NCBI RefSeq assembly: GCF_000372725.1
Contig: NW_005201551.1
Coordinates: 280,520 to 344,519, forward strand
DNA from: Emiliania huxleyi CCMP1516
Lineage: Eukaryota
Direction: 5' to 3'
DNA length: 64,000 bases
Part shown: piece by piece, positions 35,932 to 64,000 of the stretch
How the letters are laid out: each line of letters starts with the position of its first letter
Numbering within the stretch: the first letter of the stretch is position 1
Translations under genes and position numbers: made by a program
Notes under the pieces: generated by a model
The model's input: only the letters and a program-made list of their open reading frames with translations
What the model was told of the DNA's origin: nothing
Database searches by the model: none

Positions 35932-38900
35932 ATGCTGCTCTCCTGTTTGGCGCTGTCGCCGTCCGACGCCTCGCCGACGCCGGCAGGCCGCGGTGAGCCA
36001 TCAACCACGCCTCCGCGCGCCGCGCTGCCGCTGCTGCTTCCAGAAGCCGCCTCCACCAAATTGGTGCCAAAGTCCCGCCGTAGTAGCCGCGGGCGATGTT
36101 TGCAACACTGGACGTAGAGCGGCACGGCGGCGATGACCCGGGCGCTTCAGAGGGCCTCTGGCCACCGTACACACACACATTCACAAGCAAGTACACACAG
36201 GCACCGCGCCTCAGCCGCGTCGGTACATGCAGGCGCTGCAGCCCGAGGCGCTGGACTACGTCGCTGGCCTGCGCGGGCCGGTGGCGGTGGTGGCAGCGAT
36301 CGGCCAGTACCGGAGCGGCAAGTCGTTTCTGCTCAACCAGCTGATGCGGCTCAACTGCAGCGAGGGCTTCCAGGACACTTTCATAGACATGTCACAACAA
36401 CCGCGGCTCCAGGACACTTAAAAACATAGACAGCTCACAAAGCACCGCGGCTCGAGGCCACTCTCGTAGACAGTTCACACTCCAGTCACACACACGTGCG
36501 GGACCGGTCACGCGCACATGTACATGTGAGGCGCCTCCGGTGCACGCCTCCATTGCCCAATGCATCCCTCATCCGTCTCTTCACACGCCGGTGGCCGCGA
36601 GCAGGTCGGGCACCGGCGGGATTACCCGAGATTACCCGAGATTACCCGAGATTACCCGAGATTACCCGAGCAGGTCGGGCACCGGCGGGACGCGCAGACC
36701 AAAGGAGTGTGGCTGTACGGGCAGCGCGCCGAGGCGTTCGGAGGCCCCGGAGGCGCCACGGTCCTCTTTCTTTAATTGTTTAACGAGTCGCACTTGACTA
36801 ACCACAGGGGAATTGAGTACAGGCGCCACGGTTCTCTTTCTCGACTCCGAGGGGTTCGAGGGGACGGGGAAGGCGGCTGCGTACGACGACCGCATCTTTG
36901 CGTTTGCGGCGCTGTCCGCTGCGGCTCGGGTAATCTCGGGCAATCTCGGGTAATCTCGGGTAATCTCGAGCAGGTGCTGTCCGCGGCGGCGGTGCTCATT
37001 CTAGGAACCTTCTAGGAACCTTCAGGAGCCTTCTAGGGTACTTCTAGGTGCTGTCCGCGGCGGCGGTGCTCTACAATCTGGTGGAGGGCCGTCCGAGAGG
37101 CGGCGCTTTCAATGATAACCAATGAATGAGTTCGTTTTCATTGTATGAAAGGTGGAGACTACTCGAGAGGGGCGGCGCCCTTTTAGTTCACTCTCAAGTA
37201 ACGAATCGCCTTTCCTTAAATGAAAGGTGGAGACCATCCGAGAGGCGGACATCGCGAAGCTGGCCTTCGCTGTTAATTAATAATTAGTTAAAGGCTCTGA
37301 TAATTAATTACAGGCGGACATCGCGAAGCTGGCCTTCGCCGCGCAGCTGGCGTCGGAGTTCTGGCGCCGCACTAGCGGCGAGGCGGGCGGAGGAGGCGGG
37401 GGAGAGGGCGAGGGCGGCGGCGGCGAGGGGAGCGACAGTGGCGATGGCGGCGGCGGCGAGGAAGGCGGAGGGAAGGGTCGCGGCACGGCGCGGCGGCGGT
37501 GGGCTCCTCCTGCAATGCTCTGGCGTGTGCAGCGCCGACGTCTTTAAGTCATTAACGAATCGTGATGAATTAATTGGAGGGAATTGAGTCCAGGCGTGTG
37601 CGACGTCTTTAATTAGTTAAACCAATCGTCCCTATCTAATCAGAGGTGGTTAGTCACAGGCTTGTGCAGCGCGACTTCTTGCAAGGAGGGTCGGTGGAGG
37701 AGTATCTGCGGCAGGCGCTTAGTTATTACTAAGGGTAATGAATTAAGGGTCATGAATTAAGGGGAATTAATTAAGGTCGGTCGAGGAGTCCTTGCGGCAG
37801 GCGGCTCAATGAACTAATTACTACCCCTCCATTAAGGGTACTTAATTGAGGTGGAGGAGTCCTTGCGGCAGGCGCTGCAGCCGGTCTAGCCGCCTAGAAG
37901 CAGACATACGTATTCTTACACTCCAACAAGCGCTCGAGAGACGTACTCAGCCGTATGATTCGGCCGTGTTCACTGTAGTCGCCCCCCTCGTATTCAAACG
38001 GTGCTCTGAAGACGCTGCACAGTACCGCCTTCCCGCCCCCGAGGTTGTTGGCGGATTCGTGACTTGTAGGTCGAGCACGCTCCGACGGACGCGCAGGCGG
38101 GGCAGCCGAGAGTACCCGAGAGGACCCGAGAGGACCCGAGAGGACCCGAGAGGACCCGAGAGGACCCGAGAGGACCCGAGATTACCCGAGAGTACCCGAG
38201 AGGAGCCGAGAGTACCCGAGAGTACCCGAGAGTACCCGGGATTGTCCGAGACGCCCAGGCGAGGCAGCTCTGACTCGGTGTTAGCTAGCTGTGAACTCGT
38301 TGTGAACTCGTTGTGAATTCGTTGTGAACTCGTTGTCAACTCGTTGTCAACTCGTTGTCAACTCGACGCGCAGGCGGGGCAGCTCAACGCCATCCGCCGC
38401 ACACTGCGCTCCTTCGGCGGCATGCGCGGCCTCGGCTTACCGCAGCCCCACCCTTCCCGAACGTCCCTCTGCGACCTCCCGCCCGATCAGCTAGCGGCAG
38501 AGTACCGGGCGGGCATGCAGGCTGTGCGGGAGTGGGTCGGTTCTGTTGCGCAACGGCGGAGGAGGCGGGCGCCGGCGGCGGAGGCGGAGGCGGAGGCGGA
38601 GGCGGAGGCGGAGGAGGCGGAGGAGGCGGAGGCGGCGGAGCGGCCAGTTGCGTCACGCGTTGGGACGACTGCAGCAGACGCGATGGCGATGGCAAATGGG
38701 AATGGGAGGGTGTGGGGCAGTGGCAAGGAGCTGGCGGGGGCGGTGCGGAAGCTGGTGGAGGCGCTCAACGCCAACGCCATCCCGACGGCCGGCTCCGTCA
38801 TCGACTCTTTCAACAACGAGGCGATCCCGTTGATTAATTATTGATTACAGAGGCAGTGATGAAATGATCAACAGATTGACTCGTTCAACAACGAGGCGAC

Positions 38901-39648
38901 CCCGTTGATGAATTATTGGTTACAGAGGGCAGTTATGAAATGATCAACAGATTGACTCGTTCAACAACGAGGCGATCCCGTTGATGAATTATTGATTACA
39001 GAGGCAGTTATGAAATGATCAACAGATTGACTCGTTCAACAACGGGGCGATCCCGTTGATGAATTATTGATTACAGAGGCAGTTATGAAATGATCAACAG
39101 ATTGATCTCCTTCATTGTCAAGACGAGTTGTGAAGAGTCGATGGCTGATTAACTACTCACTGACGCCTTCCACAACGAGGCACTCGTTGTTAAGATTCGA
39201 CGACGCACTAACTCACCCCTACTGGCGCCGTCCACAACCAGGCCCGCGCGACGGCGCTGGCGACGCTGCGGGCGGATGCCGAGAAGAGCGTTCCGCTGCA
39301 GCCCGACGAATTGTGGTCGTTCACGCCGCCGGTCGTTCACACACAGGCGGATGCGGAGGCGCTCCCGCTGCCGATGGTCGAGGCTCGGCTCGCCTCCTCC
39401 CTCGCCGCCTCCGTCGCCGCCGCCGAGCGGGCGCTGCGCCGGCGCGTGTTTGGCGGGGGGGCGGGGGGGGGGGGGGGGCCCCTGAAATTAATGAATATTA
39501 ACTCCTACCCCTTTTAATTCATAGGCCCCTGTTTGGCGGGGGGGCGGGGGGGCGGCTGGCGGCGGCAAACATGGCGGCGGTCCCTAAAGCGGCCGGCGAG
39601 AGGTAGCCGAGATGGCGTCGAGATATAGCGGGGATTGAGGAGGGGAGG

Positions 39649-39682
<34 letters not shown>

Positions 39683-39707
39683 CAGAGAGAGAGAGAGACA
39701 GAGAGAC

Positions 39708-39764
<57 letters not shown>

Positions 39765-42147
39765 CAGAGAGACAGAGAGACAGAGAGACAGAGAGACAGA
39801 GAGACAAACAGTTATTGAAACGTATTCAGGCGACGCCAACTTCCGCGCGTCACACGCCCAGTGCCGCCTGCTCTGGTCTCGCTGCGCCGCCTCCCTCGCC
39901 GCCCTCCGCGCCGTGTTGCTGCCCTCCCGCCGCCGCTTCCACGCGCGCGTCGAGCGCTGCAACGACACATTGAGGTTTATTATTATCATTGCTACTGTTG
40001 TTGTTGTTGTTGTTATTACTATTATGATTAGTGGCATCACTATTTCTTATCATCGCTGTTTATTGGTATTCATGAGCATCGCTACTTACTATTGCCATTA
40101 CTCTACTGTGATTGTGATCCTCACTGTTGTTGTTATATTGTTACCATTCTGATTGTTGTCATTCCTACTTTAGCGGCTGCGTTGGGCCGGCGGCGGCGGA
40201 GTATCACGAGAGGCTGGCGCTGGAGGCGGGGAAGGGCGAGGAGGAGTTCAATGCGCGCTTCCACGGCCAGCTGTCCCACGCCCTCTTCCTGTTGTGCGTT
40301 GGCGGCATCCTCACCTTCTGCGACGTGGTCGTGAGCGCACTGATGAATCTTAACTAATAATTAATGAGTATTAATTCATAGGCATCCTCACCTTCTGCGA
40401 CGTGGTCGTGAGCGCACTGATGAATCTGAACTAATAAGTAATGAGTATTAATTCATAGGCATCCTCACCTTCCGCTACGTGGCCGTGAGCGCCTTAATGA
40501 ATCTTGATTAATATCAATTAGTATTCATGCATAGGCATCCTCACCTTCCGCTACGTGGCCGTGAGCGCATTAAATAATCTGAAGATTGATCTTAATAATT
40601 CAATTCATAGGCATCCTCACCTTCCGCTACGTGGCCGTGAGCGCCTTAATGAATCTTGATTAATATCAATTAGTATTCATTCATAGGCATCCTCACCTTC
40701 CGCTACGTGGCCGTGAGCGCATTACACAATCTGAAGATTGATCTTAATAATTCAATTCATAGGCATCCTCACCTTCCGCTACGTGGCCGTGAGCGCCCTC
40801 GCCGAGGTGGGCTGCCGGCTGCTGCTGCCTTAAGAGCTGGGGCCGCGTCCTGTGACCGCGTGATCCGGTGTGATCTGGTGTGACCACAGGTCGGCTGCTG
40901 GCTGCTGTTAATTAATAGCAATCAAGATGAACTAATCTCGGCCGATCTCGCGGAGGTGGGCTGCTGGCTGCTGCTGGCGTCGGTGGAGCTGCTGCCCAGG
41001 CTGGCCAAGCTTTAAATAAATAAATAAAAACGGACACCTCTCTACTGTGAGATGGGTAAAAAGGAACAGGTCCCCGCCCTTGCGATCTTTGTGCAGGGTT
41101 CTTTGTTGGCCAAGCCAAGTTTTGCTTCTCAGATAGATTGGCATCCATAATCACTATGATACGAGTTAATGAGCTCAAGCTGCGTCTTCGCAGGCTGGCT
41201 GCGCTCGCCCAGTTCTCGCCCGTCGCCGCAGCTACTGCGTCGGTCTGGGAGATATGGGGAGATATGGGGAGATACGGGGAGATAGTGTCCCCCCATCCCC
41301 AGGGCCTTCAGGGCTCACACCTCACCCTCTCACAGACCAGCTCGCAGCGCCATAGGACGTATTTCCTTCTCAACAACAAGGCGTGTGAATAGGTCTGGGA
41401 GACGGCGGCGGGGAAGGTGGCTGTCGATTGGTACGAAGGCGATTAATTAATTGGGCGATGAATTCAGATTTATCAATTAAAGGCGGCTGTCGAGTGGTAC
41501 GAGGCGATTAAATCAGTGAATTGGGCGATGAATTCATATGTGTCAGTTAAAGGCGGCTGTCGAGTGGTACGAAGGCGATTAATTAATTGGGCGAGTAATT
41601 CAGATTTATCAATTAAAGGCGGCTGTCGAGTGGTACGAGGCGATTAAATCAGTGAATTGGGCGAGTAATTCAGATTTCTCAGTTAAAGGCGGCTGTCGAG
41701 TGGTACGAGGCGGTGGTGTTCAATCCGGTGGCGGATTTGGACAACCTGCTGCTGCCGCTGGCCGCCGGCCTCCTCGCCGTCTGCACTGCGCGATACTGCC
41801 GCCGCTGCGCGCGCGCCACGCGCCGCTGGCGAGGGCGATCAGCTGGCGAGATGCAGCCGAGATGCAGCCGAGATGCAGCCGAGATGCAGCCGAGATGCAG
41901 CCGAGATGCGGGCGAGATGCGGCCGAGATGCAGCCGAGATGCAGCCGAGATGCGGCCGAGATGCAGCCGAGATACACCCGTTGCAGCCGATGTACGCCCG
42001 CCCGAGAACGCCCGAGATGATCCGAGATCACCCGAGATTTCCGAGCTCAGGCAGCTACCGGCACGTCGGCGGCGGCGACGACGACGACGACGAGGAGGAG
42101 GAGGACGATCTCTCGGGGTCGAGGCACGTCTCCGGTCGCTGGCCTGA
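35932..42147 (+). CDS. Guanylate-binding protein/atlastin-family GTPase with C-terminal TM segments
   Basis: PVAVVAAIGQYRSGKSFLLNQL (G1), QTKGVW (G2), FLDSEGF (G3), DDRIFAFAAL, LWLVQRDF, LPQP; hydrophobic segments at ~40280, 40770 and 41750. Confidence 0.9.
37884..38069 (+). mobile_element. Introner-like intron, copy A (GBP gene)
   Basis: GCCTAGAAGC..AGCGCTCGAG..CGGTGCTCTGAAGAC.CTGC..CCCGCCCC..TAG; starts GTCTAGC, next exon starts GTCGAGC. Confidence 0.8.
38803..39110 (+). repeat. About 75-bp tandem array, 4 copies, intronic
   Basis: GACTCGTTCAACAACGAGGCGATCCCGTTG plus AT-rich spacer. Confidence 0.9.
40304..40797 (+). repeat. Acceptor + exon-start array, 7 copies, 76-77 bp period
   Basis: GGCATCCTCACCTTC..ACGTGG.CGTGAGCGC at 40304, 40381, 40458, 40534, 40610, 40686 and 40762; spacers end CATAG. 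Confidence 0.92.
41414..41712 (+). repeat. Acceptor + exon-start array, 5 copies, 66/70 bp alternating period
   Basis: AAGGCGGCTGTCGAGTGGTACGA repeated with AT-rich spacers. Confidence 0.9.
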
Positions 42148-43106
42148 CNNNNNNNNNNNNNNNNNNNNNNNNNNNNNNNNNNNNNNNNNNNNNNNNNNNN
42201 NNNNNNNNNNNNNNNNNNNNNNNNNNNNNNNNNNNNNNNNNNNNNNNNTTTCCCCCCCCCCTTTTTTCCCCCCCCCCCCCCCCTCCCTCCCCCCCCCCAT
42301 CCTCCTCCAGCCCTTTCCCCGCCGAGGAACAACATTCACTTAGCGGCGCGCTAAATTCTTAACGACTCGACTACTGCGCAGGACGACGGGATGTGGACAA
42401 GATGTGGTCGAAGCTCCTCGAACATCTCCCCTCCCAGTCAAAGCGGGTTGAGCCCCCTTCCCTTAATTCACAGCTCGAGGCTCGGTGGCTCTTGACACGT
42501 CCTGGGAGTCTCTCGGAGTAACTCTCGTCCATCTCTCAATAGGCCAGCTGTCGCGGCTCGAGCGGGCCTCCCGCCCCACCAGCCCGGGAGAGGTGGAGCT
42601 GCTGCCTCGCGCGGCGTGAGGCTACACACCACGGCTTTACACCATGCGAGGTCACTCGAGAGTACACATACGCGACGAGTACGCGGGAGGATGGTGCGTC
42701 GTTATCCGATGACGACCGAGCGACCGGCACCCTCCCGGCGCACCGGTGCCGGTGCCGGTCCGCGCGCTGCAGCGCACCTCCTCGCCCTCCCCCCTCTCTT
42801 TCCGATGTCTGGTACGATTACAAAAAGTCTGGTTTGTAGAGTGTTGGTACGCCACGTCTCCCTCGCCCCTCGGCCTCCCTCCCCCGCGCGCACGCGCGCC
42901 AAAGATGAATGGCAATATGGCCAATGCGCACAAGCCACAACACATCTGGGCAACGCGCAAGCAATGAAGGTTCATCTGTGCATGATTGTGGGTGACTCTG
43001 ACTAGCTGCACACGCGGCCGTGCCGGTCTGTGACGCTCTCTGCCGAGCTCGCACGGCGGTCCCGCCGGGCCCCGCGCCCTCGCCACCCGGCCGGGGCTGG
43101 AGAGGC

Positions 43107-43895
43107 TCAGCAGAGGTCGATGCCGCGCTCCTCGCACACGGCCACCAGCTCAGGCTGCTTCTTGTTCGGGTAGCCCACCTCGAGCTTCTGCACGCGACGG
43201 GAGGCGCGATGAGCATTGGGCGGGGGAGGGGCGTGTGGCGAGGGGGGGAGGCGTCTCGCGCCTTCAAGCTCGGGGCGGCCCCCTCCTTGAGGGCGGCGGC
43301 CAGCGCCTTGCAGCCCTCGTCGCCAATCTTGTTGCCGCCGAGATAGAGCGTCTCGAGCCGCGGCGCTGCCCCGCTCGCGAGGACCTCCGCCAGCTGCGCC
43401 GCCTCCGCGTCGCCCCAGCCGAGCATGCCGTAGCCCAGCACGGTCGCCTTGCCAAACTGCTCCTTGAAGGCGGCCTCGTACAGCCGCTTCACCAGCGGCT
43501 TGTCGTCCTTGCCGTTGGTGAAGCTCTTCGTCTCAAGCTCCGCCGCGAACGCAGACGGCAGCAGCGGAGGGCGCCGGCCGCCGTCCTGGATGCAGTCGGT
43601 GATGAGGTTGACGAAGTCGTACTCCACGCCGGCGCGCATCTTGCCGAGGTCGAGCGAGAGGGTCCAGGCCTTTGTCAGGCCAGCCCAGCTCTGCTCGGTG
43701 TAGCACCAGCCGCGGTCAAAGTACTTGGCCACGTTGGTGCCTTCGGCCTGGTTCTCCGCCTTGTGGCCGTCCGGGAAGGAGGTCAGCCGCAGCACCCAAG
43801 TGTGCGGGTGGGAGTAGAGCGTGCCGAGGCAGCCCAGCCCCTGCTTGAAGAGCGCGTTCTGCTCCTCGGTGCGCAGGACGCCGTTGGCGGGGTCG
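43107..43895 (-). pseudogene. HET/TIR-like + LRR protein, copy 4, 5'-truncated
   Basis: Homology begins at DPANGVLRTEEQ; upstream is replaced by repeat sequence (43896-43930, matches 53688-53720); same terminal GC-AG intron. Confidence 0.8.
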
Positions 43896-44983
43896 TGGCA
43901 AATCAAGACACAGAGCTCACACAGAATCACAGCGGGAGGAAAGCGGCGAGTCGCAATTCCAGGGGTCGTTGTGGCGGGCCACCCTGTCTTCTTTGCCGTG
44001 TTAGTGGCAAAGTCGCGTCGATCTTTTTCTTGACCCAGTATCGTAGTCTTTGTTAGTATCGAGGTCTCGCGAGTTTTGGGGGTTCTCGGCGCCGCGACAG
44101 CGCTGCGAGCGGCGCGATGCCACGGCGCTTGGCCTGCTGAGAGAAGAGCTTCCCGGACGGCAGTGACAAGTTACCCGACATCAATCGTCGACGGCAACCT
44201 CGAGAACTGCGCCTCCAAAGTCGCCCAGATTCGCCTCTCGCGGCGCGCTGAGTTAGTATCGCCGGTGCGCCAGCAGGCTCTGCTCCACAGCAGGGCATGC
44301 CCGACTGGCTCCTGCTAGCCGTGCGTCCTGGTGGCATCCATTGCCAGCTCAGGTAGCCTCAGGAGGTCGCCTCGCGCACGACGCGGCGTCGCACAGCACC
44401 GCTCAGCGTTACTACCGAGTTAGTATCGTCGACCCACAGAGACTGCTCTTCTGTAGGTGGAGCCGACAAACGCCGGCCGGATCGGCGCCGCCGCCCCCAT
44501 CGCCGCCGCCGGGGCGGCGGCGGCCTCGGCGGACCATCCGGCGCGCCGCGCGCCCGTCGGGGAGGTGTTCACCACCCCTGGCTCCTCACCCCGCCACGCC
44601 TTCGTGCGGACGCCGTGGCACCCACCTCAGGCGCCGCTCGGACTCGGTTGACGGCCACCCAAGTGCTTGGCTCGTGCCAAGCCGACCGGCAGGCGATTCC
44701 CAGTCACTGCTAGGCTAATCTCGGGCTGTCCTGCGTCAGTGTGGTGCCGTGAGGGGCGCCGCCCCCAAAACTACGATCGTTAGTACCGTGTAGGGGCAGT
44801 GCATTTAATTCTGTCACAAATCCAAATCTGCTCCGTGGAGCTTATTGGGCTAGGATCATACGTCCGGGAGGCCCCCCATGCGTGCCGTAACGATCGACAG
44901 CGATCTGGCTACTCTGTTCACGTTCACACCTCGAAACCCCCCATAACCCCGATACAGGAGGTAGCCGGCCCGGCACCCGCTCG

Positions 44984-47900
44984 ATGACAGCGCTCGCTCG
45001 CTCGCTGCTGCTCTTCACCGCCCTCCTCTCGCCTTCCCTGGCCGTCGCAGCGGTTAGCGGCGTCGCGCCCTCCAATCCTCCCTCCGCGTGCGTCGACGGC
45101 GGCGACGGCAAACTGAGGGTGCTCCTCATCGCTCCCGCGTGGCCGTGGGGATTTGGCGCCTACCAGAGCCAACTCTCGACGCTCGGCGCCGCCCTCGTCG
45201 ACCTCGGTTACGCCGTGGTGTGGAACGCGGCGTTTCGGCCCGGAGTGCTCCCCGACCCGGACAGAGTCTACACCTTCTCCGAGGCGTCGCTGCTCGCAGC
45301 GGGCGGCGACGGCCGACTGCCGACGGAGAGCGCGCCGTCCGCCGCCACCGCCGCCCGCTCGTCGCGGTTCGGCTTCATCGACGTGCCGCTTCCCGAGGCG
45401 TACTGGGGCCGCGGCAACGGCGTCCTCGTCTCGGCCGTCGATGCGGCGGCGAGACGACACGCCATCGACGCCGTGATCCTCTTGCTCGACGCAAACCTGG
45501 CATCTCGCGATATCTCGCCACATCTCCTCGTATCTCCATCTCTCCATCTCTGACCGTCTCTCCCCATATCTCCCCACCTCTCGCCATCAAGACAGTGCCG
45601 AGGCTACCTCGTCGGCCGCGCGAGTGTGAGCTGGCTTCGCCGCGCTGTGAATAGGTGCTGAGCGACGTGGACCGCACCCGGCCCTACTCCGTCTTTTGGT
45701 TCCCGTCGCACTTTGACGCGTTTGTCCCGTCGCAGCGGCGCGCGCCTTAATTGATTAATTCGAAACTCCTTATTAATTTATAAAGAGGCATTGAGCGGAG
45801 GCACCCACGCGCAGCACACCGGCGAGGGGCTCCAGCACACCCGACGCCGCGGGGCTAGCGCGCACAGATGGCAACACGCACAGATGGCCTGAGACGGCCG
45901 AAAGCTGCGACCGACACCCGCCCGGTAGGCGCGCGCTGTTAAATTGATGATGAATCAATCAATATCTGACCGACACCCGCCCGGTACGCAGGCGAGCGCT
46001 CTCCGCTTTCGACGCCATCGCTGCGCTGGCGCCGTCGGCAGAGCAGCCTAGAAGCGCAAGGCGTACTCATCGGTTCCCACTAGCGCTCGAGCGGACACGT
46101 ATTCAGCCGTACTCGCAGCCCCTCGTACTCACGCGGTGCTCCAAATACACTGCACAACACCGTCCTCCCGCCCCGAGGTTGACGCACTCAGCACGTAGGC
46201 GGAGCAGATGCTTCGCGAGTCGCCGGCCGAGAGCGGTGAGTTTGACCCGGCCAGCAAATGGGTCGGCACCATCCCGCATGTGGCGGAGCCGCCGCCAGGG
46301 CTGCACGAGGCCTTCTACGGGGATGGCCTCGGTGGGATCGACGCGCTCCGCCCGTCGCTGCGCCGCAAGCACGGTATGCCGACCGCCGCGTTTGTCGCGC
46401 TGGTCAACTGTGGCAACTACGACGCGGTGAACCGAAAGGCGCTGGATGTGGCGGTGCTGGCGTTCAAGGCGCTGCGAGAGACGGTGGCGGGGGCGCACCT
46501 CTTTCTCAAAGTGATGTCTACCGCGCACATCCTCGCTGCCGAGGGCAACGGGCTGCCGGAGCAACACACCGCCGACCCCGCAATCAGCCTGGCGGGGCTG
46601 CTGCGGGCCGCAGGGCTGCCAGCAGGCTCCTTCACAGTGGAGGACCGGGTGCTGGACTGGAGTGCCTCGTGGGAGATGCTGGCAGCAGCGGACGTCCTGC
46701 TGATGCCATCGAAGAGCGAAGGGTTCGGCTTGCCGCTGCTCGAGGCGCAGCGCGTTGGCACACCCGCCGTCACCACCGCGTTCGGCGCTATGGCGGACTA
46801 CACGTGGCATGGCCTCTCTGTTCCGTTTGTGCAGCGCAGCTTTCTCAGCGACGGCTTCGCCGCCACGCCGAGTGTGGCCGGTACCGCGGACGCACTGCGC
46901 AGGGTCGCAGCTGGAGAGTTGTCAGCATCGACGCGGGAGGCTGCTGCCCGCCGCATACGCGCCGAGCTCTCTTCGGCGGCGGTGGGGCGGCGGTTTCACG
47001 AGCTGCTGCTGCGGGGCGTCTGTGGGGAGGGGGGCGAGGAGGAGGGGTTGGGCGAGGCGGAGGCGGGGAAGGAGGAGGAGGAAGCAGCGGCGGCGGAGGA
47101 GGAGGCGGCGGAGGGAGAGCAGGAGGAGGAGGAGGCGGAGGCCGAGGCGGGGCAGGAGGGCGAGGGCGAGGAGGAGGAGGAGGAGGAGGCAGCGGCAGGG
47201 CAGGAGGGCGAGGGTGAGGAGGACGAGGGCGAGGGGTCGTCCGTGTCGATCAGCGAGTGGCTGCCATCGCCCGGGCGCGGCAGCCGCGTCGCCTCCGCCG
47301 CCGACCCCGCCGCCGCCAACGCGCCGCCGCCACCCTCCACCACCACCACCGCCGCCGTCACTGCGGTTGCGCGTCACTCGGAGTGCACAGGGGAGAACGC
47401 GCTTCTGATGCGGACTCGGGAGGACGGCGTGTGCAGCAACGACGGCGCAGGAGCAGGAGCAGGTGGGGAAGCAGGAGCAGGGGGCGAATGGGGAGCAGCA
47501 GCAGCAGCAGGAGGAGGAGGAGGAGGAGGAGGAGGCGGCGGAGACGGAGGAGCAGGAGGAGGAGGAGGAGGAGGAGGCGATGTTGGTGTTTGGGTGGTGG
47601 CGGCTCCAGTCACTATCATTAACTGAGTAATAGGTGTTGATGGAGTGACTGGGTGGAGTTTGGTCGGAGGAGGCGGCGCAGGGGATTTGCCCCCGGCCCG
47701 AGTCCATGGGTGCTCAATAACTAATCATTAACCACGTACCGAACAGGCGAGGGGGCGGCCGCCGACGCGAGTCCATGGGTGGTCAATTAATTGATCGTTA
47801 ACAACTGATAGGAGGGGGCGGCCCCCGTCCCGAGTCCGTAGGGGATGCGTTCGTGATCAGTAACTAGTCATTAACAATTGGTAGGCGAGGGGACGGCCGC

Positions 47901-51232: not shown

Positions 51233-51284
<52 letters not shown>

Positions 51285-53560: not shown

Positions 53561-53687
53561 CGCGCGCGGCGCCGGCCCGGTCGCGAGGGACTTTCCGTTT
53601 CATCGGTCGTTGGATAGACAACCGTCGATGGACGCGTCCCCCCGGGGGGGTCCGCGAGCGAGTGTTTCTTGTTTTTAGGTTTGTTTA

Positions 53688-54110
53688 GCAGATCAAGACA
53701 CAGAGCTCACACAAAATCACTGTGTGTCTTGTGAGTTTGTGTGTCTGTGTGTCGCTCCAGCGTGTGCCGTCATCTCTCCCCTGGCCTTGCGTCCATGTCC
53801 AGTCCGAGCCTGGCTGTTCTTCGCCTTCCAGTGAATCAATCCCCAGTGTCCACTTGGCAAGCCTCTGGCGCACTTGGAGCACTTGGAGTGCGGTCATTAA
53901 CCTCACGCCCAGGACCGATTGGTTGAGAAGCTGCCGAGCCCAAATCACTCTGGTGCCACATTTCTTGCTTGGTTGATGGATAGAAAGGCGAAGAAAGGCG
54001 AAGAAAGGCGAGGAAACAGTCGGGCTCGGACTGGTCTCCAGCGCGGTATGGGTGGACGCGGGACAGATGATGACGACACGCACGAGCGACACACAGACAC
54101 AAACAAGCCG
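53688..54110. mobile_element. Two tail-to-tail copies of the retroelement 3' region seen at 31692-31820
   Basis: CCAGTCCGAGCC..CTGTT on + at ~53800 and its reverse complement at ~54015, followed by CGCGGTATGGGTGGACGC..GACACACAGACAC. Confidence 0.75.
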
Positions 54111-54229
54111 GGGAGCTAAGAAGCGCGCCCAGGTAAATCATTTATTTCGCTGCTCGACAGCGTCTTGACCTGGTCGACGGTCTTTACCTCGAGCAGCGCA
54201 CAAGTCGCCCACAGGCCCCGTCTCGCGCC

Positions 54230-57200
54230 ATGTCGGCAAAGGGAAGCCTCCACGCCGCTGCGAAGTGAGCGCGCCGCCGCGCCCTCGCCTCCTCGCATTC
54301 GCATCTAGGACGCCGCATCACACAGCGCCTCGTGCGACGGGCGCAGCGCACTCGGGGATGCTTGGGTGAAGAGAGAGGAGGCCGCTGGGTGGGTAAGCGA
54401 ACACCAGGCCCTGCCACCGCCGCCGTGCCGCCAAATCACCGCCGCCGCCCGCCGCCGCCCGGCTGCCGCGCCTCACGATCTCACGGGCGCGCTATCTCAC
54501 GCCGTGGGGCGCCGTCGGGCGGGCCTCCCTCCATCTCCTCGGCAGCTCGCGCCTCCCTCGACGCCGCCCCTAGACTGAGCTCGAGCAGAGACACGCGCGC
54601 CACACACCGTGACTGTGCACACACACAGACACAGGCTCTGATGGGGTCTGAGCGATGGGAGCCTCGTGTGGACACAGCGACACAGACACAGAGACACGCT
54701 CGTGTGGATGCATGTCTCCCGACACCAGCGCGGTATGGGTGGACGCGGGACAGGAGAGGACGGCACGCCCTGGAGCGACACACAGACACGCAGACACTCG
54801 CGCAAGACCCAGCGAGGTCGGCTGCCACACATACCGAGAGTAAGATATCACCGCACACACCGCGCGCACGCGCCGCGGCGGCAGTTCCTCCTTCTGTGCA
54901 ACTGATGCTCGCTCGGCCTGAGAGAGCTCCACACGCCTCTCGCCGCAGGGCCAAGCCGAAGCCGGACTGGTCGCTGACGCCCAAGGCGAGCGCCAGCGGG
55001 AGATTGTATCGCGGAGATTCGGAGATTTCTAGTGGTTGTTTTCTTCTCCAGGCGAGCGCCACTCGATGCTTGACCTCGCCGCTAATTAATAATTAATCAT
55101 TCGTTTCTTCTGTCTTCAGGCGAAGCGGAACTCGATGCTTGACTTCGCCAAGGCCATCGCCAGCGGCGAGGAGGAGCAGGCACGCAAGTTAGTGCATACA
55201 CAACGGACGGTCACTCCTGAACTAGTTGATGGGTAGAAAGGAACAGGGGCCCGCCTGTTGTATACTTTGGAGACAACGCACACCGCTCATTAGTTTCCTT
55301 ACCTTACCGTGCCTTACCTTGCCTTACTTTGCCTCAACTTGCCGTTAGGGCGCGGCGCCGGAGAAGTCGCAAGGGTTCGCGATGCGGCCGGAGTCGTCCT
55401 TCTACCAGGCGATGAATCTCATGTATTTAATTACTCCTCTATTTTAGTTATTTATTAGATGCGGCCCGTCCTATCGAATCGAATGAAGAAATCACATTTA
55501 GTTCATTCTCCTCCTCCTTCTCCTTACCTTACCTTCTACCCGCAGGCGATGTCGGACGTTGAGGCGCTCGCCGACTGCCCCTTCTCCTCCTCGGGCGACA
55601 GTCACGAATTACCATTCTAACTCGTCATTGATTCATCGATACCTCAGGCGCCCGCGGACTCCAAGTCTGCCCTCGTGAACCTCGACACACTAACGCATGA
55701 TTAATCATTCATCAACTGATCACTTCAGGCGCTCGCGGACTCCAAGTCTGCCCTCGTGAACCTCGACACACTAACGCATGATTAATAACTCATCAACGGA
55801 TTACTTCAGGCGCTCGCGGACTCCAAGTCTGCCCTCGTGAACCTCGACACACTAACGCATGATTAATAACTCATCAACGGATTACTTCAGGCGCTCGCGG
55901 ACTCCAAGTCTGCCCTCGTGAACCTCGACACACTAACGCATGATTAATCATTCATCAACGGATTACTTCAGGCGCTCGCGGACTCCAAGTCTGCCCTCGT
56001 GAACCTCGACACACTAACGCATGATTAATCAGTCATCAACTGATTACTTCAGGCGCTCGCGGACTCCAAGTCTGCCCTCGTGAACCTTGCGGACAACTTC
56101 GAGGCTTTCCCGGGGTCGATGCTGGTGGACGAGAAGGGAGCGCCTAGGGGGAGATCTGGGGAGATATGGGGAGATATGGGGAGATATGGCGAGATATGGC
56201 GAGATGTGGGGAGATGTGGGGAGATGTGGGGAGATGTGGGGAGATGTGGGGAGATGTGCGGAGATATGCGGAGATAGGGGGAGATCAGTGCGGCAGCCCG
56301 AGCATCGCATTCGCGCGCCTACCTCCCCACATGTCGCTGCTGCTGGACAGTCGAGAAGGGAGCAGCGCCGACATTGTGTGTGGGCGGGGCATGGACGTTG
56401 TGTTGGGCGGGGGCATGGACCCGGCGGAAGGACTTAGTATTCGGAGGGGGTTAGTCGATTGTTGGCGGGAGCCGGCGCGGTGGCGGGGGTGGAGAGGCGA
56501 AGGAATGATTCTTAATTCCAGTGAATACCATCTTAGGCGCGTCGCGTTCCTTTTGTGTACCCCATCGCCAGGCAGCTCTGCCCGGTTTCTTTACGTCTGC
56601 TGTGTTTATGCAGGCGCGGACGCGGTGGCGGGGGTGGAGAGGCGAAGGAAGGAGTCTTAACCTCAATGAATTTATACCATCTCAGGCGCCGACGCGGTGG
56701 CCGGGGTCAAGGCGAAGTACGACGTGTCTCCGGACGGCGAGCTGCTCCACTCCTCGCCCGTCATCAATTATTAGTTGTCAATTGGCGAGATGAGTATTGA
56801 TTGATTAGGCGACCTCTTCCTCCTCGCCCAGATCACTTCTGCGAATCAATGTTAATTCTCCACTCTTTCTAATATGAACTAGGCGACCTCTTCCTCCTCG
56901 CCCAGATCGAGATTGCCTGCCCGAAAGAGACGGCGAGAATGCAGCGAGATTGGAGCGAGATCGAGACGAGGGGTCGAGATCGCCTGCCCGCGCAAGAGAC
57001 GGAGATGGAGCTGCTTTGGGGCGGATATGGTTGTCTCATTAGTTCATCACCTTCCTACCAGTTCACAGTTTCTTAATAAATAAGTTAGTCAGCCAGTCCA
57101 ATTCGCAGGCGATGGACCTCCTCTGGGACGGGCGCGCGCCACGACTGCCTGCGCACGATCTGGAAGAGCCTCCCTCAGTTAACAGGCAGCTCAGAATGAG

Positions 57201-59762
57201 TTAGGCGCGCTACGACCGTCTGCAAGATCTGGAAGAGTCTGGTCGGGTCTCACGAGGTCATCCACGAGTACGCGCTCGCCGCCTCTGCCTGTCATTAAGC
57301 TCTACCTAGCGAATACTCTCATGGTTTAATGAAACAGGTACGCGCCCGCTCGCCGCCTCTGCCTGTCATTAAGCTCTACCTAGCGAATACTCTCATGATT
57401 TAATGAAACAGGTACGCGCCCGCTCGCCGCCTCTGCCTGTCATTAAGCTCTACCTAGCGAATACTCTCATGGTTTAATGAAACAGGTACGCGCCCGCTCG
57501 CCGCCTCTGCCTGTCATTAAGCTCTACCTAGCGAATACTCTCATGGTTTAATGAAACAGGTACGCGCCCGCTCGCCGCCTCTGCCTGTCATTAAGCTCTA
57601 CCTAGCGAATACTCTCATGGTTTAATGAAACAGGTACGCGCCCGCTCGCCGCCTCTGCCTGTCATTAAGCTCTACCTAGCGAATACTCTCATGGTTTAAT
57701 GAAACAGGTACGCGCCCGCTCGCCGCCTCTGCCTGTCATTAAGCTCTACCTAGCAAATACTCTCATGATTTAATGAAACAGGTACGTGCCCGCTCGCCGC
57801 CTCTGCCTGTCATTCAGCTCTACCTAGCAAATACTCTCATGATTTAATGAAACAGGTACGTGCCCGCTCGCCGCCTCTGCCTGTCATTAAGCTCTACCTA
57901 GCGAATACTCTCATGATTTAATGAAACAGGTACGCGCCCGCTCGCCGCCTCTGCCTGTCATTAAGCTCTACCTAGCGAATACTCTCATGATTTAATGAAA
58001 CAGGTACGTGCCCGCTCGCGCCGCACTCTGCACATTAAGCTCTCATTAGCAATGAACGAGTCATTGATTACCGACTCAGGTACACGCCAACCTGCCGCAT
58101 CCTGCACATCAAGTTCGCGCCGCCCTCCCTCGGCGCCGCCTCCGCCGCCGCCACGCCCGAACGAGAGGCACCCGGCCTTGGAGTGAGCAGCCAGTTCTAT
58201 ACTTGATCAGGCGCCGCCGCCGCCGCCGCCGCCACGCCCGCGCGAACGCAAAAGTGGCTCTTTAATTCAGAGTTCTTTTAAAGAGTTATTTTTAGGCGCC
58301 GCCGCCGCCACCTCTGCGCGCGACACGTCCGTCATCGCAAACAAGTGAGATCTAGCCGAGAGAGCGAGCCGAGAGAGCGAGCCGAGAGAGCTAGCCAAAA
58401 GGCAGCCGCGGTCTAGCCGAGGTCTAGCCGAGGTCTAGCCGAGATCTCACTAGCCGAGGTCTAGCCGAGAGAGCTAGCCGAGAGAGCTAGATAGCCGAGG
58501 TCTAGCCGAGGTCTAGCCGAGGTCTAGCTGCGTCGATCGCCCGAAGAGACGACCTCGGCCGAAGCTCGGCCCAATCTCGCGCAATCTCGCGGAAGGTACT
58601 CGAAGACCATCGTCTGCCACTCGATCGTCTCGTCGCACATCCCGCCGGTGCGAATTAGTTAATTAATAACGAGATTTTGATTAACAATTACTGGTGTCGT
58701 CTCGTCGCACATCCCGCCGGTGCGAATTAGTTAATTAATAACGAGATTTTGATTCACAATTACTGGTGTCGTCTCGTCGCATATCCCGCCGGTGCGCGAA
58801 AAACACGATGAGTTAACACTATGACTTATTGATTAACCATTCACAGTAGTAGTACTCAGGGAGGAGTCAGTAATCCCCCGCCCTTACCCCCGCCCTTACC
58901 CCGCGCTGACCCCGCGCTGACCCCAGGTCGACGGCTCGGAGAACAAGAAGGTGCAGTACGTGCGAGGGGACACCAAGGTCCTCGGGTTTGTCGTCGAGCC
59001 GACCGGCGGCCCACACCCTCGCGCTCCGCCCCGATCGAGGGGGCTTGGCCCGAGCTGAATTAACGAGTCTCCGTGATGATGGCAACAGGCCCGAATTCGT
59101 GCTCCGTCTCGATCGCGTGCGACTTCGCGCTCAACGGCGCGCAGAGAGTCGTCGAGAGTCGTCGAGAGTCGTCGAGAGTCGTCGAGAGTCGTCGAGAGTC
59201 GTCGAGTCGTCGAGATTCGTCGAGATTCGTCGAGATTCGTCGAGATTCGGACGTCGCTCAACGAGCAACGGCAGGGAGAGTTACTTAGTGAAGGCTGCCC
59301 CCTGCAGGCGGGTTCGACTGGTGGGTGACGAAGCTCCTCTTCAAGTGCACAGGCGCTAATTACTCGATCAATTAGCTAATAATAATCAATTCGTTGCGAC
59401 CAAGTTCAAAGGCGCTGTTAATCACCGTTCCTTTTTTAAGTGCACAGGCGCCAATCACTAGTTTTAGTTGGTCATACTTGTACTCAATCCGTTACCAAGT
59501 TCAAAGGCGCTGTTAATCAACGTTCCTTTTTAAGTGCACAGGCGCCAATCACTTAATTAATTGGTCATATTTGTACTCAATCCGTTGCGACCACACGCTC
59601 CTCTTCAAGAGCGCTATTAGTCAACGCTCCTCTCAATGGATTCTTCTCGGAACCTTCTCGGAACCTTCCCCGTGCGCAGGCGTCGCGGAGATGGCGGCCA
59701 AGTCGACCGCGACGGATGTCGCAAAGTGCCTCAAGCGGCTCCGCACGGCCTGCGAGGCTTGA
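54230..59762 (+). CDS. START/SRPBCC lipid-binding domain protein, many short exons
   Basis: AMDLLWDG, RILHIKFAPP, RDTSVIANK, SKTIVCHSIVSSHIPP, YVRGDTKVLGFVVEPT, CSVSIACDFALNG, WVTKLLF and C-terminal helix ..LKRLRTACEA*. Confidence 0.72.
55645..56086 (+). repeat. Acceptor + exon-start array, 6 copies, 81-bp period
   Basis: CAG|GCGCTCGCGGACTCCAAGTCTGCCCTCGTGAACCT repeated. Confidence 0.92.
57268..58020 (+). repeat. 74-bp tandem array, about 10 copies, intronic
   Basis: AAACAG|GTACGCGCCCGCTCGCCGCCTCTGCCTGTCATTAAGC.. every 74 bp from 57335 to 58001. Confidence 0.95.
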
Positions 59763-61393
59763 GAGTAGCCGAAATGGGCCGAGAGAGTAGCCGAGAGATG
59801 CCGGTAGCCGAGAGTAGCCGAGAGATGGGCCGAGAGTAGCCGAGAGTAGCCGAGAGTAGCCGAGAGTAGCCGAGAGTAGCCGAGAGTAGCCGAGAAATGA
59901 GGTGATGTCTCATGTGGCTGTACCTGGCCACCCGGCGCCAAGGCCGGGGCGCCTTCTAAGAGGTTGCCTACTTCGAGTAGGCGTTGGCCAAGGGCGATGC
60001 CGACATCGCGATGTGACACCAAGCGTGTGAGGCGCAGCGATACAGTGGGGGCGCGAGCCTCCGGGGGGCGAGAGACGCGTCTCAGCTGAGCTGCACCTCC
60101 GAGCGTCCGCATGCAGAGAGCCTCAGGGGCCTCCGTGCGGCAACCGGCATCCAACCACATGCATGAATCGATTCGAAATACGCTGGGGCTTCTAAGTTCC
60201 TTCCCTCACCCTCCCAGTAAACGTGTTAAAGTTCTTCTCCCGTGTTGTTCAAGGTACGGCTTTAACCCCTAAACGGCGTTCCTGTCAGTACTGACAGGAG
60301 GCCGTCTATTTTATTCCTTTGCAGGAGGCGTGAATCCGTTAGGATTCTCGCCCGCTCTGCTGAGGGGAGGGGACGGTCGACTGGGCCGGTCGCTCGACCC
60401 GATTCTACTCTACTATCAGTCTTACCATTCATGGACAATAGTGTCTGTGACGGCGGTGACATTCACAGCGAGGTCAGTTCACAGCCGAGGCGCCGATCCT
60501 GACACGCTCCACTTTCGGCTCGCCGCGGCTCGAGCAAGGTCTATGTCGATCCGCATCTTGCCAGCTGTGGCTCGCCCGTCTACCGCTACCGCGCCTACCA
60601 GATACAGTCGCAGATGCAGGCTTGCGTTGGCTTGAGACGTCATTCGTCCACGCTGGCGCTTGCGGTGCCATTCTGTGCTGTGGTTCTCGTGCGGTTTTAT
60701 CGTTCTTCGTTGCGATTGCCGTGGTGGCGGTGGATGCAGCCGAGCCGAGTGTCGTCGTTGACGGCATCGCGCTCGTCTTTCGACTGCCTCGCTTCTTCTA
60801 CCGACACGGAGACACGTGGGTCAGCGCGCAGTCGAAGATCTGGTATGCGTTTATCTTCTGTTGTCGTCGAGATTTCCGGCTGGGTCAGCTCACCGATGCG
60901 GCCCCGACCGGCCTTTGCGACAGCATCTGCGACGCTGCTCAGCCGCTGACGCCGCGAGAGTGGATCGCCATGGCGTGGCCAGCAGTACGGCGAGCTATGT
61001 CAGTGTCATTACCGTTGCAGTGATGTGGGACCCTCTGGCCAGCCTCTGGCACCATCTTGGATGCCGGCGCGGGTCCCCACGTCAGGTTGTTTTGGGTTAC
61101 TGTAACTGAGGTGTGCACGACGCCCGCAAAGGAAGCAGCGCAGCCGCCAGCAGCGCCACGCGCGACATAGCCCCCAGCGTAGCTCGCGGCAGCGCAGCAG
61201 GAATGAAGGGTGGAGTCGTCCCGGATGCTCTTAGAGAGGCTGATACCGGTACGACAAGGACAGCGACAGAATGGCGTTGCGTCACAGGAGGAGCAGTGGC
61301 GGCAGCAGAGGGCAGAGACGGCAGAGGCAGGGGCGGCGGCTGCGGAGGTGGAGGGGGCGGAGGAGGTCGAGGCAAAGGCGGAGGCACAGGTGG

Positions 61394-61531
61394 GTTGCTG
61401 CTCAGGCTGCTGCTCAGGCTGCTGCTCGGGCTGCTGCTCGGGCTGCTGCTCGGGCTGCTGCTCGGGCTGCTGCTCGGGCTGCTGCTCGGGCTGCTGCTCG
61501 GGCTGCTGCTCGGGCTGCTGCTCGGGCTGCT
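61394..61531. repeat. 12-bp tandem repeat (GCTGCTGCTCGG), encodes EQQP on the - strand
   Basis: About 11 units within ORF 60939-61823; coding status uncertain. Confidence 0.85.
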
Positions 61532-61913
61532 GCGAGGCGAGCCTTGTGCCTGGAGGTCGGGCCGTGGCAGCAGCAGGAGGCTCGGGGACCAGGCTGTCGC
61601 GTCGCAGCGGCCGGCCGGGAGAGCTCTGTTGGGGTTGGCGCTGGTCTAGGGCACCAGAGCGTCGTCCATCAGAGCGTGGCCCACCGGCCGGCAGCGCGTG
61701 TACCGAGCTGAAGTCCGTGCGACTGGTGCCTTCGGCAGCGGCCGCGGGCGGCTCCAGGTCGCCAAAGAAAGCGCACAAGCACGCACACGCGCTAAGTCGC
61801 AGCGGCGCCGCGGGAGGCAGCACCGAGTGCCGACCGCCGGCAGAATTCGCAGCCCCGCAGGAGCGAGAGCGCCTAAAGCACGGGCTCGCCGGCCATTCAC
61901 TGGCGGCCGCGCG

Positions 61914-64000
61914 ATGCGCCTCGCCGTCCCGGCGCTCGCCCTCCTCTCACTGCTCGCGCTGCTCCGCGCACACGGCGCCACGGCTCCGAGCGTCGCGGGC
62001 AGCGACCACCTAGGTCTGGAGCGCGCGTCAACCGGTGCGCAGACGCTCGCGGCGGAGGCGGCAGTCGCTGCGGCTGAGGCGGCAGTCGCTGCGGCGGAGG
62101 CGGCGGCCGCTGTGGCGGAGGAGCGCAGGCTCAACCCCGACGCCTCGTCGACTGCGGAGGTCGCCAGAGAACAGGGCGGGGCTACGCCCGAGGCGAGCCA
62201 CAGCGGCAGCGTGCACGCGGCGCCGGACAGCTCCACGCGGCGGGCGACGGACGGCGGCGGCGGGACGCGCTCCCACTCCCACGGCGAGGTGCGCGGCCGA
62301 TCCGACGGCGGCGTGTTGCCCGGGCGGCGCTTCCCTGGAGCCTTCCGGGAGCCTTCCCGGAGCCTTCCCTGCAGGTGCGCCCCAAGGGGGAGGAGGAGTG
62401 GAAGGTGCCGCTAAAGCCTTCGGTGGTGGCGCGGGCGCCGAGCATCGGCGGCGTCGACCGGCGCGAGTCCGCGCTGGCGAAGCGGCTGAGGTTGCAGCAG
62501 TTTCACGACTTGGTCATGGAGCCTAGAAGCTGCTAGAAGCCGAGTACGTATTCGTGTACTCCTAGTAGCGCTCGAGAGGACACGGACTCAGCTGTACTCG
62601 GCCGCATTCAGCTGTCGTCGCCTCCCTCGTATTCACGCGGTGCTCTGAAGACACTGCGCTATACCGTTTTCCCGCCCTCATGTTGGCGTATTCAGCACCG
62701 CGTGGTCAATCTAACCCTAACCCAACCCTAACCCTAACCCTAACCGTAGGTAATGGACAATCTCGGGCCGCTCGCCGCGATTGGCTGGGCAATCTCGCCC
62801 CTGCTCGCCCTCGCCTGTCGCCGTTGACCGTGCCCTCAAAAGACGGACGCTCGCTTCCTGGCGTAGGTAATGGGCAATCTCCCGCAATCTCCCCGCAGTC
62901 TCCCGCAATCTCCCGCCGTCGCTCCCTCGCGTAGGACGCCCTCCTTCTCTGAGCCGCCTCCTCTCCCCCTCCACACGTCCACAATCACTCACGGGTCGAG
63001 TTGCGCACGACAGGCCAACTCCTTCTTCCTCCCTAACCCTAACCCTAACCCGTCAGGCCTTCTCCTTCTTCCTCATCTTCGCGTACTGCGCGCAGCGCTA
63101 GACGCGGAATGCGCATTCTTGTATCCCCGCCCTCACCACTGCACTCGCCGCCTTCGTCGCCGCCCCCGCCCTCACCGCTTCCCTCACCCCCCTCGCCGCC
63201 GAGCCCACCTCCCTCGCCGCCCCCACCCTCACCACCGCCCTCGCCGCCGCCGTCACCGGTCCCGCCCTCGCTGCCTACCTCAATGTGCATGCGCAGTCGT
63301 GTATCCCAAGTAGCGCTCGAGGAGGACACGCATTCAACTGTACCCCGCCGTATTCGGTTGTGTTCACTGTGTTCGTACCCCCCCGTATGCACGCGGTGCT
63401 CTGAATGGCACTGCGCAATACCGCACAATACCCTAAGGTTGGCGTACTCATCACCGCGCAGGCGCGCAGCGGTTCCTTTCGCGGAGCGTGCTGGTGACGC
63501 TGCTGTACACGATGCTCTACCTCATCGCCTCCCCCGTGGCCATCATGGCCAACAAGATCCTGATGAAGGACAAGGGCTTCGGATACCCGGTGATGGTGTC
63601 TGCGATGGGGCAGGTATTCCACGCCTAGAAGCAGAAGATCTCCCCATATCTCCCCCGTATCTCCCCCATATCTGGCAGCGCAGCCTAGGAGCGGAGTACG
63701 TGTTCTTGCATCCCAACTAGCGCTCGAGGGGGCACGCACTCGACTCTGTTCAGCCGTGTTCGGCCGCGTTGGCTGGACTCGTAGCCCCTCACATTCACGC
63801 GGTGCTACGAATGCACTGCACAGTACCGTCTCCCCGCCCTGATGTCGGCGCATTTCACCGGGCACGGTGGACCCCACTGCTACCACACCACCCACGGGAC
63901 TGAACCCACACTGGGTTCGATGCTCTGGAGGTGCGGCATTTCACCCCGCAGGTTGCCACCGCCTTGTGCGCCGCCGTCGTCGTCTTCATCACGGGCGAGA
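61914..64000 (+). CDS. TPT/nucleotide-sugar transporter family protein with long N-terminal extension (5' part)
   Basis: Signal-like MRLAVPALALLSLL; spliced FAYC|AQRFLSRSVLVTLLYTMLYLIASPVAIMANKILMKDKGFGYPVMVSAMGQ|VATALCA (NK..F.YP motif). Confidence 0.78.
62513..62704 (+). mobile_element. Introner-like element, copy C (TPT gene)
   Basis: Same core; starts GTCATGGA, echoed as GTAATGGA after the downstream TAG; own acceptor decayed (CGCGTGG). Confidence 0.75.
63088..63461 (+). mobile_element. Introner-like intron, copy D, with internal SPPP-type insert
   Basis: Perfect 10-bp duplication GCGCGCAGCG (63088-63097 and 63462-63471); removal restores the frame. Confidence 0.82.
63614..63951 (+). 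mobile_element. Introner-like intron, copy E, with 10-mer satellite and extra insert
   Basis: GT-AG; GCCTAG..TAGCGCTCGAG..CACGCGGTGCT..CTGCACAGTACCG core. Confidence 0.78.

What the first reader, a model, noticed from the sequence alone, without database searches (positions are those of the whole stretch)
37884..63951. Introner-like family: five homologous introns in three unrelated genes, donor from target duplication, acceptor from element
Seen: 37884-38069 (GBP), 46038-46198 (GT4), and 62513-62704, 63088-63461, 63614-63951 (TPT) share a ~160-190 bp core (CCTAGAAGC..AGCGCTCGAG..CGGTGCT..CTGC..TACCG..YAG), all in gene sense. Each begins with a copy of the next exon start: GTCTAGC/GTCGAGC, GCAGAGCAG/GCGGAGCAG, GTCATGGA/GTAATGGA, GCGCGCAGCG twice; degenerate in copy E. 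Excision restores the frame for copies A, B, D and E. Known: Micromonas and Aureococcus introners co-opt one splice site from the TSD. Inference: an old, abundant intron-generating element that exploits tolerance of GC donors.
Basis: partly seen in the sequence, partly recalled or inferred. Interest (0 to 1): 0.85.

Follow-up and report, generated by a model that had tools for sequence, protein, structure and literature searches.

The report
Old mini-transposon that makes algal introns
Five introns in three unrelated genes of a marine alga, likely the coccolithophore Emiliania/Gephyrocapsa, are copies of one 181-base element with matched ends that likely jumped into genes long ago and turned itself into a removable intron, probably hundreds to thousands of times, a family that published intron surveys of that alga appear not to list.

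Summary
The five introns are real homologues (nhmmer E 1e-38 to 1e-52; no sixth copy). RNA contigs remove C, D and E. A and B rest on frame; A also aligns without gaps to homologues. C ends at 62749, not 62704. A metagenome scan gave about 45 further independent copies. On this reading the donor is a host G plus the first duplicated base, the element brings AG and a branch-like A, and its last G restores the exon. Copies lie in gene sense (Pfam hits: 14 of 25 loci sense, 0 of 24 antisense). Donors are GC, GT or GA, never GG, in about the proportions coding sequence offers. Copies average 76% pairwise identity on a star tree: an old burst. This is a MITE-type introner, a known kind. By length it is not among the 37-70-nt families listed for E. 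huxleyi. No transposase found; empty sites not tested. The scan earlier noted a different repeat-flanked intron family in another haptophyte, not this one.

The parts
37884..38069 (+). Intron A (186 nt, GT..AG, phase 0) in the GBP gene: host G 37884, target copy 37885-37892, element 37893-38070 (last G is exonic), second target copy 38071-38078 (5 of 8 match)
   Evidence: spliced model aligns over 84 aa with 0 gaps, 59.5% identity, to P0017; retention brings stops. No RNA laid.
46038..46198 (+). Intron B (161 nt, GC..AG) in the GT4 glycosyltransferase gene: target copy 46039-46046, element 46047-46199 with an internal deletion, second copy 46200-46207 (7 of 8)
   Evidence: excision opens the frame into the PF00534 exon; orthologous copies L028 and L045 are 160 nt and give the same frame. 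No RNA laid.
62513..62749 (+). Intron C (237 nt, GT..AG): target copy 62514-62521, element from 62522 with a doubled 5' end, core to about 62704 with decayed acceptor, (CCCTAA)n extension 62705-62749 with the AG in use; second copy 62751-62758 (6 of 8)
   Evidence: 237-nt skip inferred from RNA contig record coordinates in X10, X12, X15; spliced ORF open from ATG 61914
63088..63461 (+). Intron D (374 nt, GC..AG): target copy 63089-63096, element 5' end 63097-63128, low-complexity insert, remainder 63288-63462; second copy 63463-63470 (8 of 8)
   Evidence: RNA joint skipping 374 nt in X10, X12, X15
63614..63951 (+). Intron E (338 nt, GT..AG): degenerate target copy 63615-63623, doubled 5' end at 63624, decamer array 63638-63673, main element 63684-63855, nested 70-nt element core 63879-63938, repeated 3' end
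   Evidence: RNA joint skipping 338 nt in X10, X12, X13, X15
61914..64000 (+).
   Evidence: exons 61914-62288, 62375-62512, 62750-62788, 63057-63087, 63462-63613, 63952- give one open frame
36194..38550 (+). Host gene of A: guanylate-binding-protein family, part examined
   Evidence: PF02263 E 5e-08; homologue profile covers the junction
45655..47188 (+). Host gene of B: GT4 glycosyltransferase, part examined
   Evidence: PF13692 and PF00534 E 1e-11; frame test

Best explanation
The five introns are copies of one 181-nt element with an imperfect 17-bp terminal inverted repeat and an 8-bp target duplication, likely a non-autonomous cut-and-paste DNA transposon (MITE) that acted as an introner in an old burst. 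Shown: homology, ends, duplication length, sense orientation, and removal of C, D, E from RNA. Inferred mechanism: a transposase acting in trans inserted the element and duplicated 8 bp. Where the site was preceded by G and began with C, T or A, the host G plus the first duplicated base forms a GC, GT or GA donor. The element supplies a branch-like A 22 nt before its AG. Splicing removes G + first target copy + element except its last G, and that G replaces the host G, so the mRNA is unchanged. Insertions in the other orientation or at GG sites would not splice and were likely purged. Since then copies have diverged about 15% from consensus and collected duplications, decamer arrays and nested elements, which with GT-biased gene models likely hid the family from surveys.
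For: 49 of 65 metagenome loci are true copies; 38 remain after dropping 6 duplicates and 5 orthologues of window copies, holding about 45 copies. Duplication length: identity 0.618 at 8 nt against 0.316 shuffled (max 0.389 in 500); all other lengths 4-13 at chance; n = 35 copies with clean ends. Inverted repeat 13 of 17 in the consensus; 2 of 100,000 shuffles reach it. G before the target in 27 of 33 copies with at least 6 of 8 match, chosen without regard to that base (p 5e-8); most exceptions have a doubled 5' end or a 1-nt indel with the G nearby. The filter is one-sided, unlike a palindromic transposase preference: G before 27 of 33 against C after 11 of 33 (p 1e-4); first base G 0 of 33 against last base C 15 of 33 (p 8e-6). 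Sense orientation: Pfam hits next to the element in 14 of 25 loci scanned in sense, with D27 and ABC1 profiles continuing in register across it; 0 of 70 antisense segments from 24 loci; neighbouring copies share a strand in 10 of 10 loci (one is a duplicate, one an orthologue of the window). A158 kept in 39 of 40 copies. Age: mean pairwise identity 0.765, star tree (terminal branches 0.13, internal 0.02), while orthologous copies are 97-100% identical. Abundance: 7 extra copies in about 68 kb of flanks; summed DNA contig depth 60-190 times single copy at 90% likeness, 250-1,650 copies after a rough correction.
Against: No transposase or autonomous partner: none among 30 long ORFs of the window scanned, none in viral contigs. 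No empty orthologous site was seen: DNA run X3 carries the 5' part of the element at L061 and no outgroup genome could be searched. Because the G is constant, a 9-bp duplication starting GH with an element ending AG fits the letters equally well; only the register of the inverted repeat decides. Strict sense orientation also fits RNA-based spread. The GA donor at L061 was not bridged by any listed RNA contig. The RNA runs are from another strain or species, with no matched DNA laid on C-E. Loci were found with a pattern built from the window copies, which favours conserved copies. The depth figure is, by the tool's own note, no copy number. The organism is inferred, not shown.
Confidence: 0.85

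Rival explanations
1. Same introner, other boundaries: a 9-bp duplication beginning GH (Mutator-like length), with the whole donor from the duplication and the element ending at AG.
For: G is present on both sides in nearly all copies. P. glacialis classes 6, 8, 10 are described with GH-initial duplications serving as donor (10.1101/2020.10.14.339549, passages).
Against: The inverted repeat is flush with both ends only if the last G belongs to the element (13 of 17 against 4 of 17).
Confidence: 0.25
2. RNA-based spread: reverse splicing or target-primed reverse transcription of a spliced intron into new mRNA sites, like ascomycete introner-like elements.
For: No antisense copy found; the element has a branch-like A and an acceptor; no transposase found.
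Against: A fixed 8-bp duplication and a terminal inverted repeat; ascomycete families have neither (PMC9860276, section read). No A-rich tail; no Rfam or tRNA-family match in the window.
Confidence: 0.08
3. A repeat that inserted into existing introns, or filler copied in during the tandem duplications that flank many introns of this genome.
For: Non-element introns in the window also carry flanking direct repeats with AT-rich, telomere-like or decamer filler; the element's own ends are often doubled this way.
Against: Similarity reaches the acceptor; the duplicate is exonic and of fixed length; modal intron length is 189-190 nt, as 1 + 8 + 180 predicts.
Confidence: 0.04

Closest known systems
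Introner-like elements of Polarella glacialis classes 6, 8, 10 and of Aureococcus anophagefferens (10.1101/2020.10.14.339549, passages read; Huff et al. 2016 not held)
   Same: 8-nt cut, GH donors taken from the target side, one splice site carried by the element, GC, GT and GA donors, GA-to-GC conversion (one case here, L042).
   Different: Those classes make introns in both orientations; here only sense copies were found. Here the donor G is best read as outside the duplication. The family here is much older (15% from consensus; 0.9-3.8% terminal branches quoted for two P. glacialis classes). No sequence comparison was possible.
Symbiodinium microadriaticum introners (PMC9860276 Fig. 2B legend)
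   Same: TIR, target duplication, carry the 3' site, co-opt the 5' site.
   Different: 4-bp duplication; dinoflagellate host.
Introner families listed for Emiliania huxleyi CCMP1516 (PMC9860276 Table 6 rows; PMC12130899 file 8 rows)
   Same: Likely the same host. A second family met here (70 nt, 2-bp duplication, co-opt 5', carry 3') fits the row of their fam24 and uses the same G-swap.
   Different: Listed families average 37 or 70 nt (43.5 nt in one Emiliania MAG); none near 181-190 nt and none with an 8-bp duplication. Their sequences were not in the supplements held, so the comparison is by length and duplication only.
hAT / P / Merlin / Novosib MITEs (8-bp duplication superfamilies; features recalled)
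   Same: 8-bp duplication, short imperfect TIR, repeated internal GTAYTC hexamers (8 forward, 2 reverse) like transposase-binding repeats.
   Different: Ends are CC…GG, not the recalled hAT or P termini; no transposase to classify by.

Membership tests
Introner (criteria of PMC12130899 section 12) | Similar introns at unrelated loci, in at least 4 non-paralogous genes | tested here: met
   3 window genes plus 14 loci with different Pfam families
Introner | Similarity reaches the intron boundaries and not into exons | tested here: met
   alignment of 50 copies; flanks unrelated beyond the 8-mer
Introner | Removed from mRNA with the frame restored | tested here: met
   D, E by RNA joints, C by record coordinates; A by gap-free homology; B by frame only
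Introner | Intron absent at the orthologous position in relatives (gain shown) | not testable with these tools
   no eukaryotic genome collection; G000 not held; conspecific copies are occupied
MITE / TIR DNA transposon | Terminal inverted repeat | tested here: met
   13 of 17 in the consensus, 2 of 100,000 shuffles
MITE / TIR DNA transposon | Target duplication of fixed length | tested here: met
   single peak at 8 nt; 9 nt if the constant G is counted
MITE / TIR DNA transposon | Autonomous partner with the same ends | tested here: inconclusive
   none in the window or viral contigs; host genome not searchable
MITE / TIR DNA transposon | Copies in both orientations and outside exons | tested here: not met
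   0 of 70 antisense segments with Pfam hits; the sample is small and biased to assembled genic contigs; loss by selection is inferred
hAT superfamily | 8-bp duplication | tested here: met
hAT superfamily | TIR starting (C/T)A(A/G)NG (recalled) | tested here: not met
   ends read CCTA on both strands; not filed as hAT
hAT superfamily | hAT transposase | not testable with these tools
   no autonomous copy in hand
Known structured RNA (snoRNA, tRNA-derived SINE) | Rfam match | tested here: not met
   0 matches at gathering score in the whole window

The most novel reading that the evidence does not exclude
Emiliania/Gephyrocapsa introns are largely fossil introners: successive waves of CC…AGG MITEs (this 181-nt family, the 70-nt family, older ones now buried under decamer arrays) took G-N donors from GC-rich exons, and this, not genome GC content alone, produced the alga's majority of GC donors and its GA donors. 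This family alone would account for thousands of introns.
Probability: 0.3. Interest if true: 0.75.

Novelty: new member of a known kind. Interest (0 to 1): 0.55.

Why it matters
E. huxleyi has mostly GC donors (56% GC, 40% GT, 4% GA in hand-curated genes), explained so far by genome GC content (PMC4028052, section 15 and passages). An abundant introner that builds its donor from exonic G-N gives a mechanistic and testable alternative. The family also shows that old introners (76% pairwise identity, often interrupted) can escape all-against-all searches on GT-biased gene models, so introner counts may be underestimates. It offers many dated insertions for following how new introns decay: acceptor shifts, donor conversion, microsatellite invasion. 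The mechanism itself is of a known kind.

Tried and rejected
Whole-genome search: no genome held. Rfam: nothing. Viral contigs: 0 loci with the long pattern, 5 with a 17-mer, all chance by profile. Prokaryotic genomes: 5 loci, chance. 16 of 65 metagenome loci were chance hits and dropped. RNA test of a GA donor at L061: no listed RNA contig covered the junction, no verdict; GA donors at L004, L038, L040, L060 rest on frame, on Pfam for L004 and L060, and on the published RT-PCR-verified GA junction. Protein searches for a transcript-derived product across A or B: P0008 and P0202 begin downstream of the junctions; GT4 homologues are too distant to cover B. No named orthologue fixed the species; one homologue cluster includes Tisochrysis lutea. 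Helitron reading (CTAG end on the reverse strand) rejected: fixed duplication. Nucleosome-length link (element plus duplication is 189 nt) could not be checked: papers not held or not found. A codon-model strand test gave sense in 22 of 27 but was confused by copies with doubled ends and was superseded by Pfam. Literature searches that found no description of this family; motif search of two supplements: (the 2022 file was cut when stored; the introner sequences are deposited elsewhere and were not seen).
Full report
Observation. The five stretches align over about 175 nt, and a profile finds exactly these five in the window (E 1.3e-52 to 3e-38, repeated with a wider profile). No genome is held for the window. 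The host genes are a GBP-family gene, a GT4 glycosyltransferase and a membrane-protein gene whose family I could not confirm.

Splicing. Four RNA runs were laid on 59500-64000. Joints skip 374 nt at D (X10, X12, X15) and 338 nt at E (all four). For C the tool skipped the telomere-like repeat, but in three runs 66 record letters lie between the pieces 62373-62516 and 63462-63609, which is 34 + 32 nt of two small exons and requires a 237-nt skip. These junctions give one open frame from ATG 61914 to the window end. The runs are of a related strain and no matching DNA was laid here. For A, the spliced model aligns to a homologue over 84 aa without a gap, and retention brings stops. For B only the frame speaks, with the point that orthologous copies are one base shorter and give the same frame.

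More copies. A three-motif pattern found 65 metagenome loci; 49 are true by profile and 16 are chance. Dropping 6 duplicates and 5 orthologues of window copies leaves 38 loci with about 45 copies. Viral and prokaryotic collections gave only chance hits.

Anatomy. The consensus of 40 near-complete copies is 181 nt, starts CCTAG and ends TAGG. Its ends form an imperfect inverted repeat, 13 of 17, only if the last G is included. With these ends the flanks show one duplication length, 8 nt (0.618 against 0.316 shuffled). GTAYTC hexamers recur through the body. An A in a C-Y-S-A motif 22 nt before the AG is kept in 39 of 40 copies; reading it as the branch point is inference. The modal intron is 189-190 nt, as 1 + 8 + 180 predicts.

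How it makes an intron. Before insertion the exon reads G-N1..N8. After it: G-N1..N8-element(..AG-G)-N1..N8. The intron starts at the host G and ends at the element's AG; the element's last G replaces the host G. G precedes the target in 27 of 33 well-matched copies; the first target base is C 20, T 7, A 6, G 0. The mirror positions show no such bias, which points to a splicing filter and not to a palindromic target preference. The proportions follow coding composition after G without GG. One copy has GA in the exon copy and GC in the intron copy (L042). A 9-bp duplication starting with G fits the letters too; the inverted repeat favours 8.

Orientation. Exon pieces next to the element hit Pfam in 14 of 25 loci scanned in sense, in register across the element for D27 and ABC1. 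For the 24 loci without a sense hit, 0 of 70 antisense segments hit. Neighbouring copies share a strand in 10 of 10 loci.

Age and number. Copies are 84.5% identical to the consensus and 76.5% to each other, on a star tree with two weak variants; orthologous copies are 97-100% identical, like their flanks. The burst therefore predates the split of the strains seen. Seven unsought copies lie in about 68 kb of flanks. Summed contig depth in DNA run X3 is 60-190 times single copy, 250-1,650 copies after a rough correction; the tool warns that this is no copy number. Hundreds to a few thousand is my estimate.

Host. Inferred as Emiliania/Gephyrocapsa from about 63% GC, marine runs, GC donors, a homologue cluster with Tisochrysis, decamer intron repeats (recalled as typical), and a second element that fits a family listed for E. 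huxleyi. Not shown by a named orthologue.

Comparison. It works like the introners of Symbiodinium, P. glacialis classes 6, 8, 10 and Aureococcus (PMC9860276, parts 1-2 of the text read; 10.1101/2020.10.14.339549, passages; review PMC11282704, passages). It meets the introner criteria of PMC12130899 (section 12), except that gain against an outgroup was not testable. It is not filed under hAT: the recalled terminal motif is absent and there is no transposase. The E. huxleyi families in the supplements of both surveys are 37-70 nt (rows seen); their sequences were not seen, so novelty rests on length and duplication. Eight literature searches found no description; most subscription papers and Repbase are outside reach. 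PMC4028052 (section 15 and passages) reports 56% GC, 40% GT and 4% GA donors and high intron retention in E. huxleyi.

Verdict. A real, old and abundant MITE-type introner; a new member of a known kind, apparently unlisted for this alga. Confidence 0.85, interest 0.55. The wider claim that such elements explain the alga's GC donors is testable, at about 0.3.

Noticed in passing
L061 431-501 and 1141-1211; window 63879-63938; L008, L011: A second introner family, about 70 nt, CC…AGG ends with a short inverted repeat and a 2-bp CG duplication, spliced in RNA contigs (skips of 72 and 70 nt). It fits the row of E. huxleyi fam24 in PMC12130899. Its core sits inside the 3' end of three copies of the 181-nt element, including E.
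   Followed up: partly
window 63624-63683; L006, L008, L014, L027, L038, L058: Decamer arrays (ATCTCCCCAT-like) enter the element again and again near nt 14, with the 5' end doubled: a hotspot for the genome's intronic minisatellite.
   Followed up: partly
consensus columns: A and T in ApT diverge about twice as fast (0.32-0.37) as other A and T (0.15-0.22), CpG is not faster than other C or G, and changes run towards G+C. Adenine methylation at ApT or several master copies could explain it.
   Followed up: partly
window 37715-37871, 38097-38373, 62789-63056: Non-element introns are flanked by long direct repeats of the junction with AT-rich, decamer or (CCCTAA)n filler; (CCCTAA)n lies just before two acceptors and contains CTAAC, a branch-site-like word.
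   Followed up: no
window 37872-37883 and 38070-38096: Micro-exons of 12 and 27 nt flank intron A in the GBP gene.
   Followed up: yes
window 38803-39114, 40304-40797, 41414-41712, 55640-56087, 57273-58019, 58625-58796: Tandem arrays of 68-81-nt units, each a GC-rich exon-like piece plus an AT-rich piece, looking like repeated splice junctions.
   Followed up: no
window 29437-31005, 33256-35382, 42818-44170, 5138-6685 (minus strand): Several related long ORFs, two with LRR_6 hits; two start with the same sequence, a local duplication.
   Followed up: no
L004, L038, L040, L060: Copies whose only frame-keeping donor appears to be GA, in genes such as aldehyde dehydrogenase and a likely PP2A B'' subunit (label recalled); RNA test inconclusive.
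   Followed up: partly
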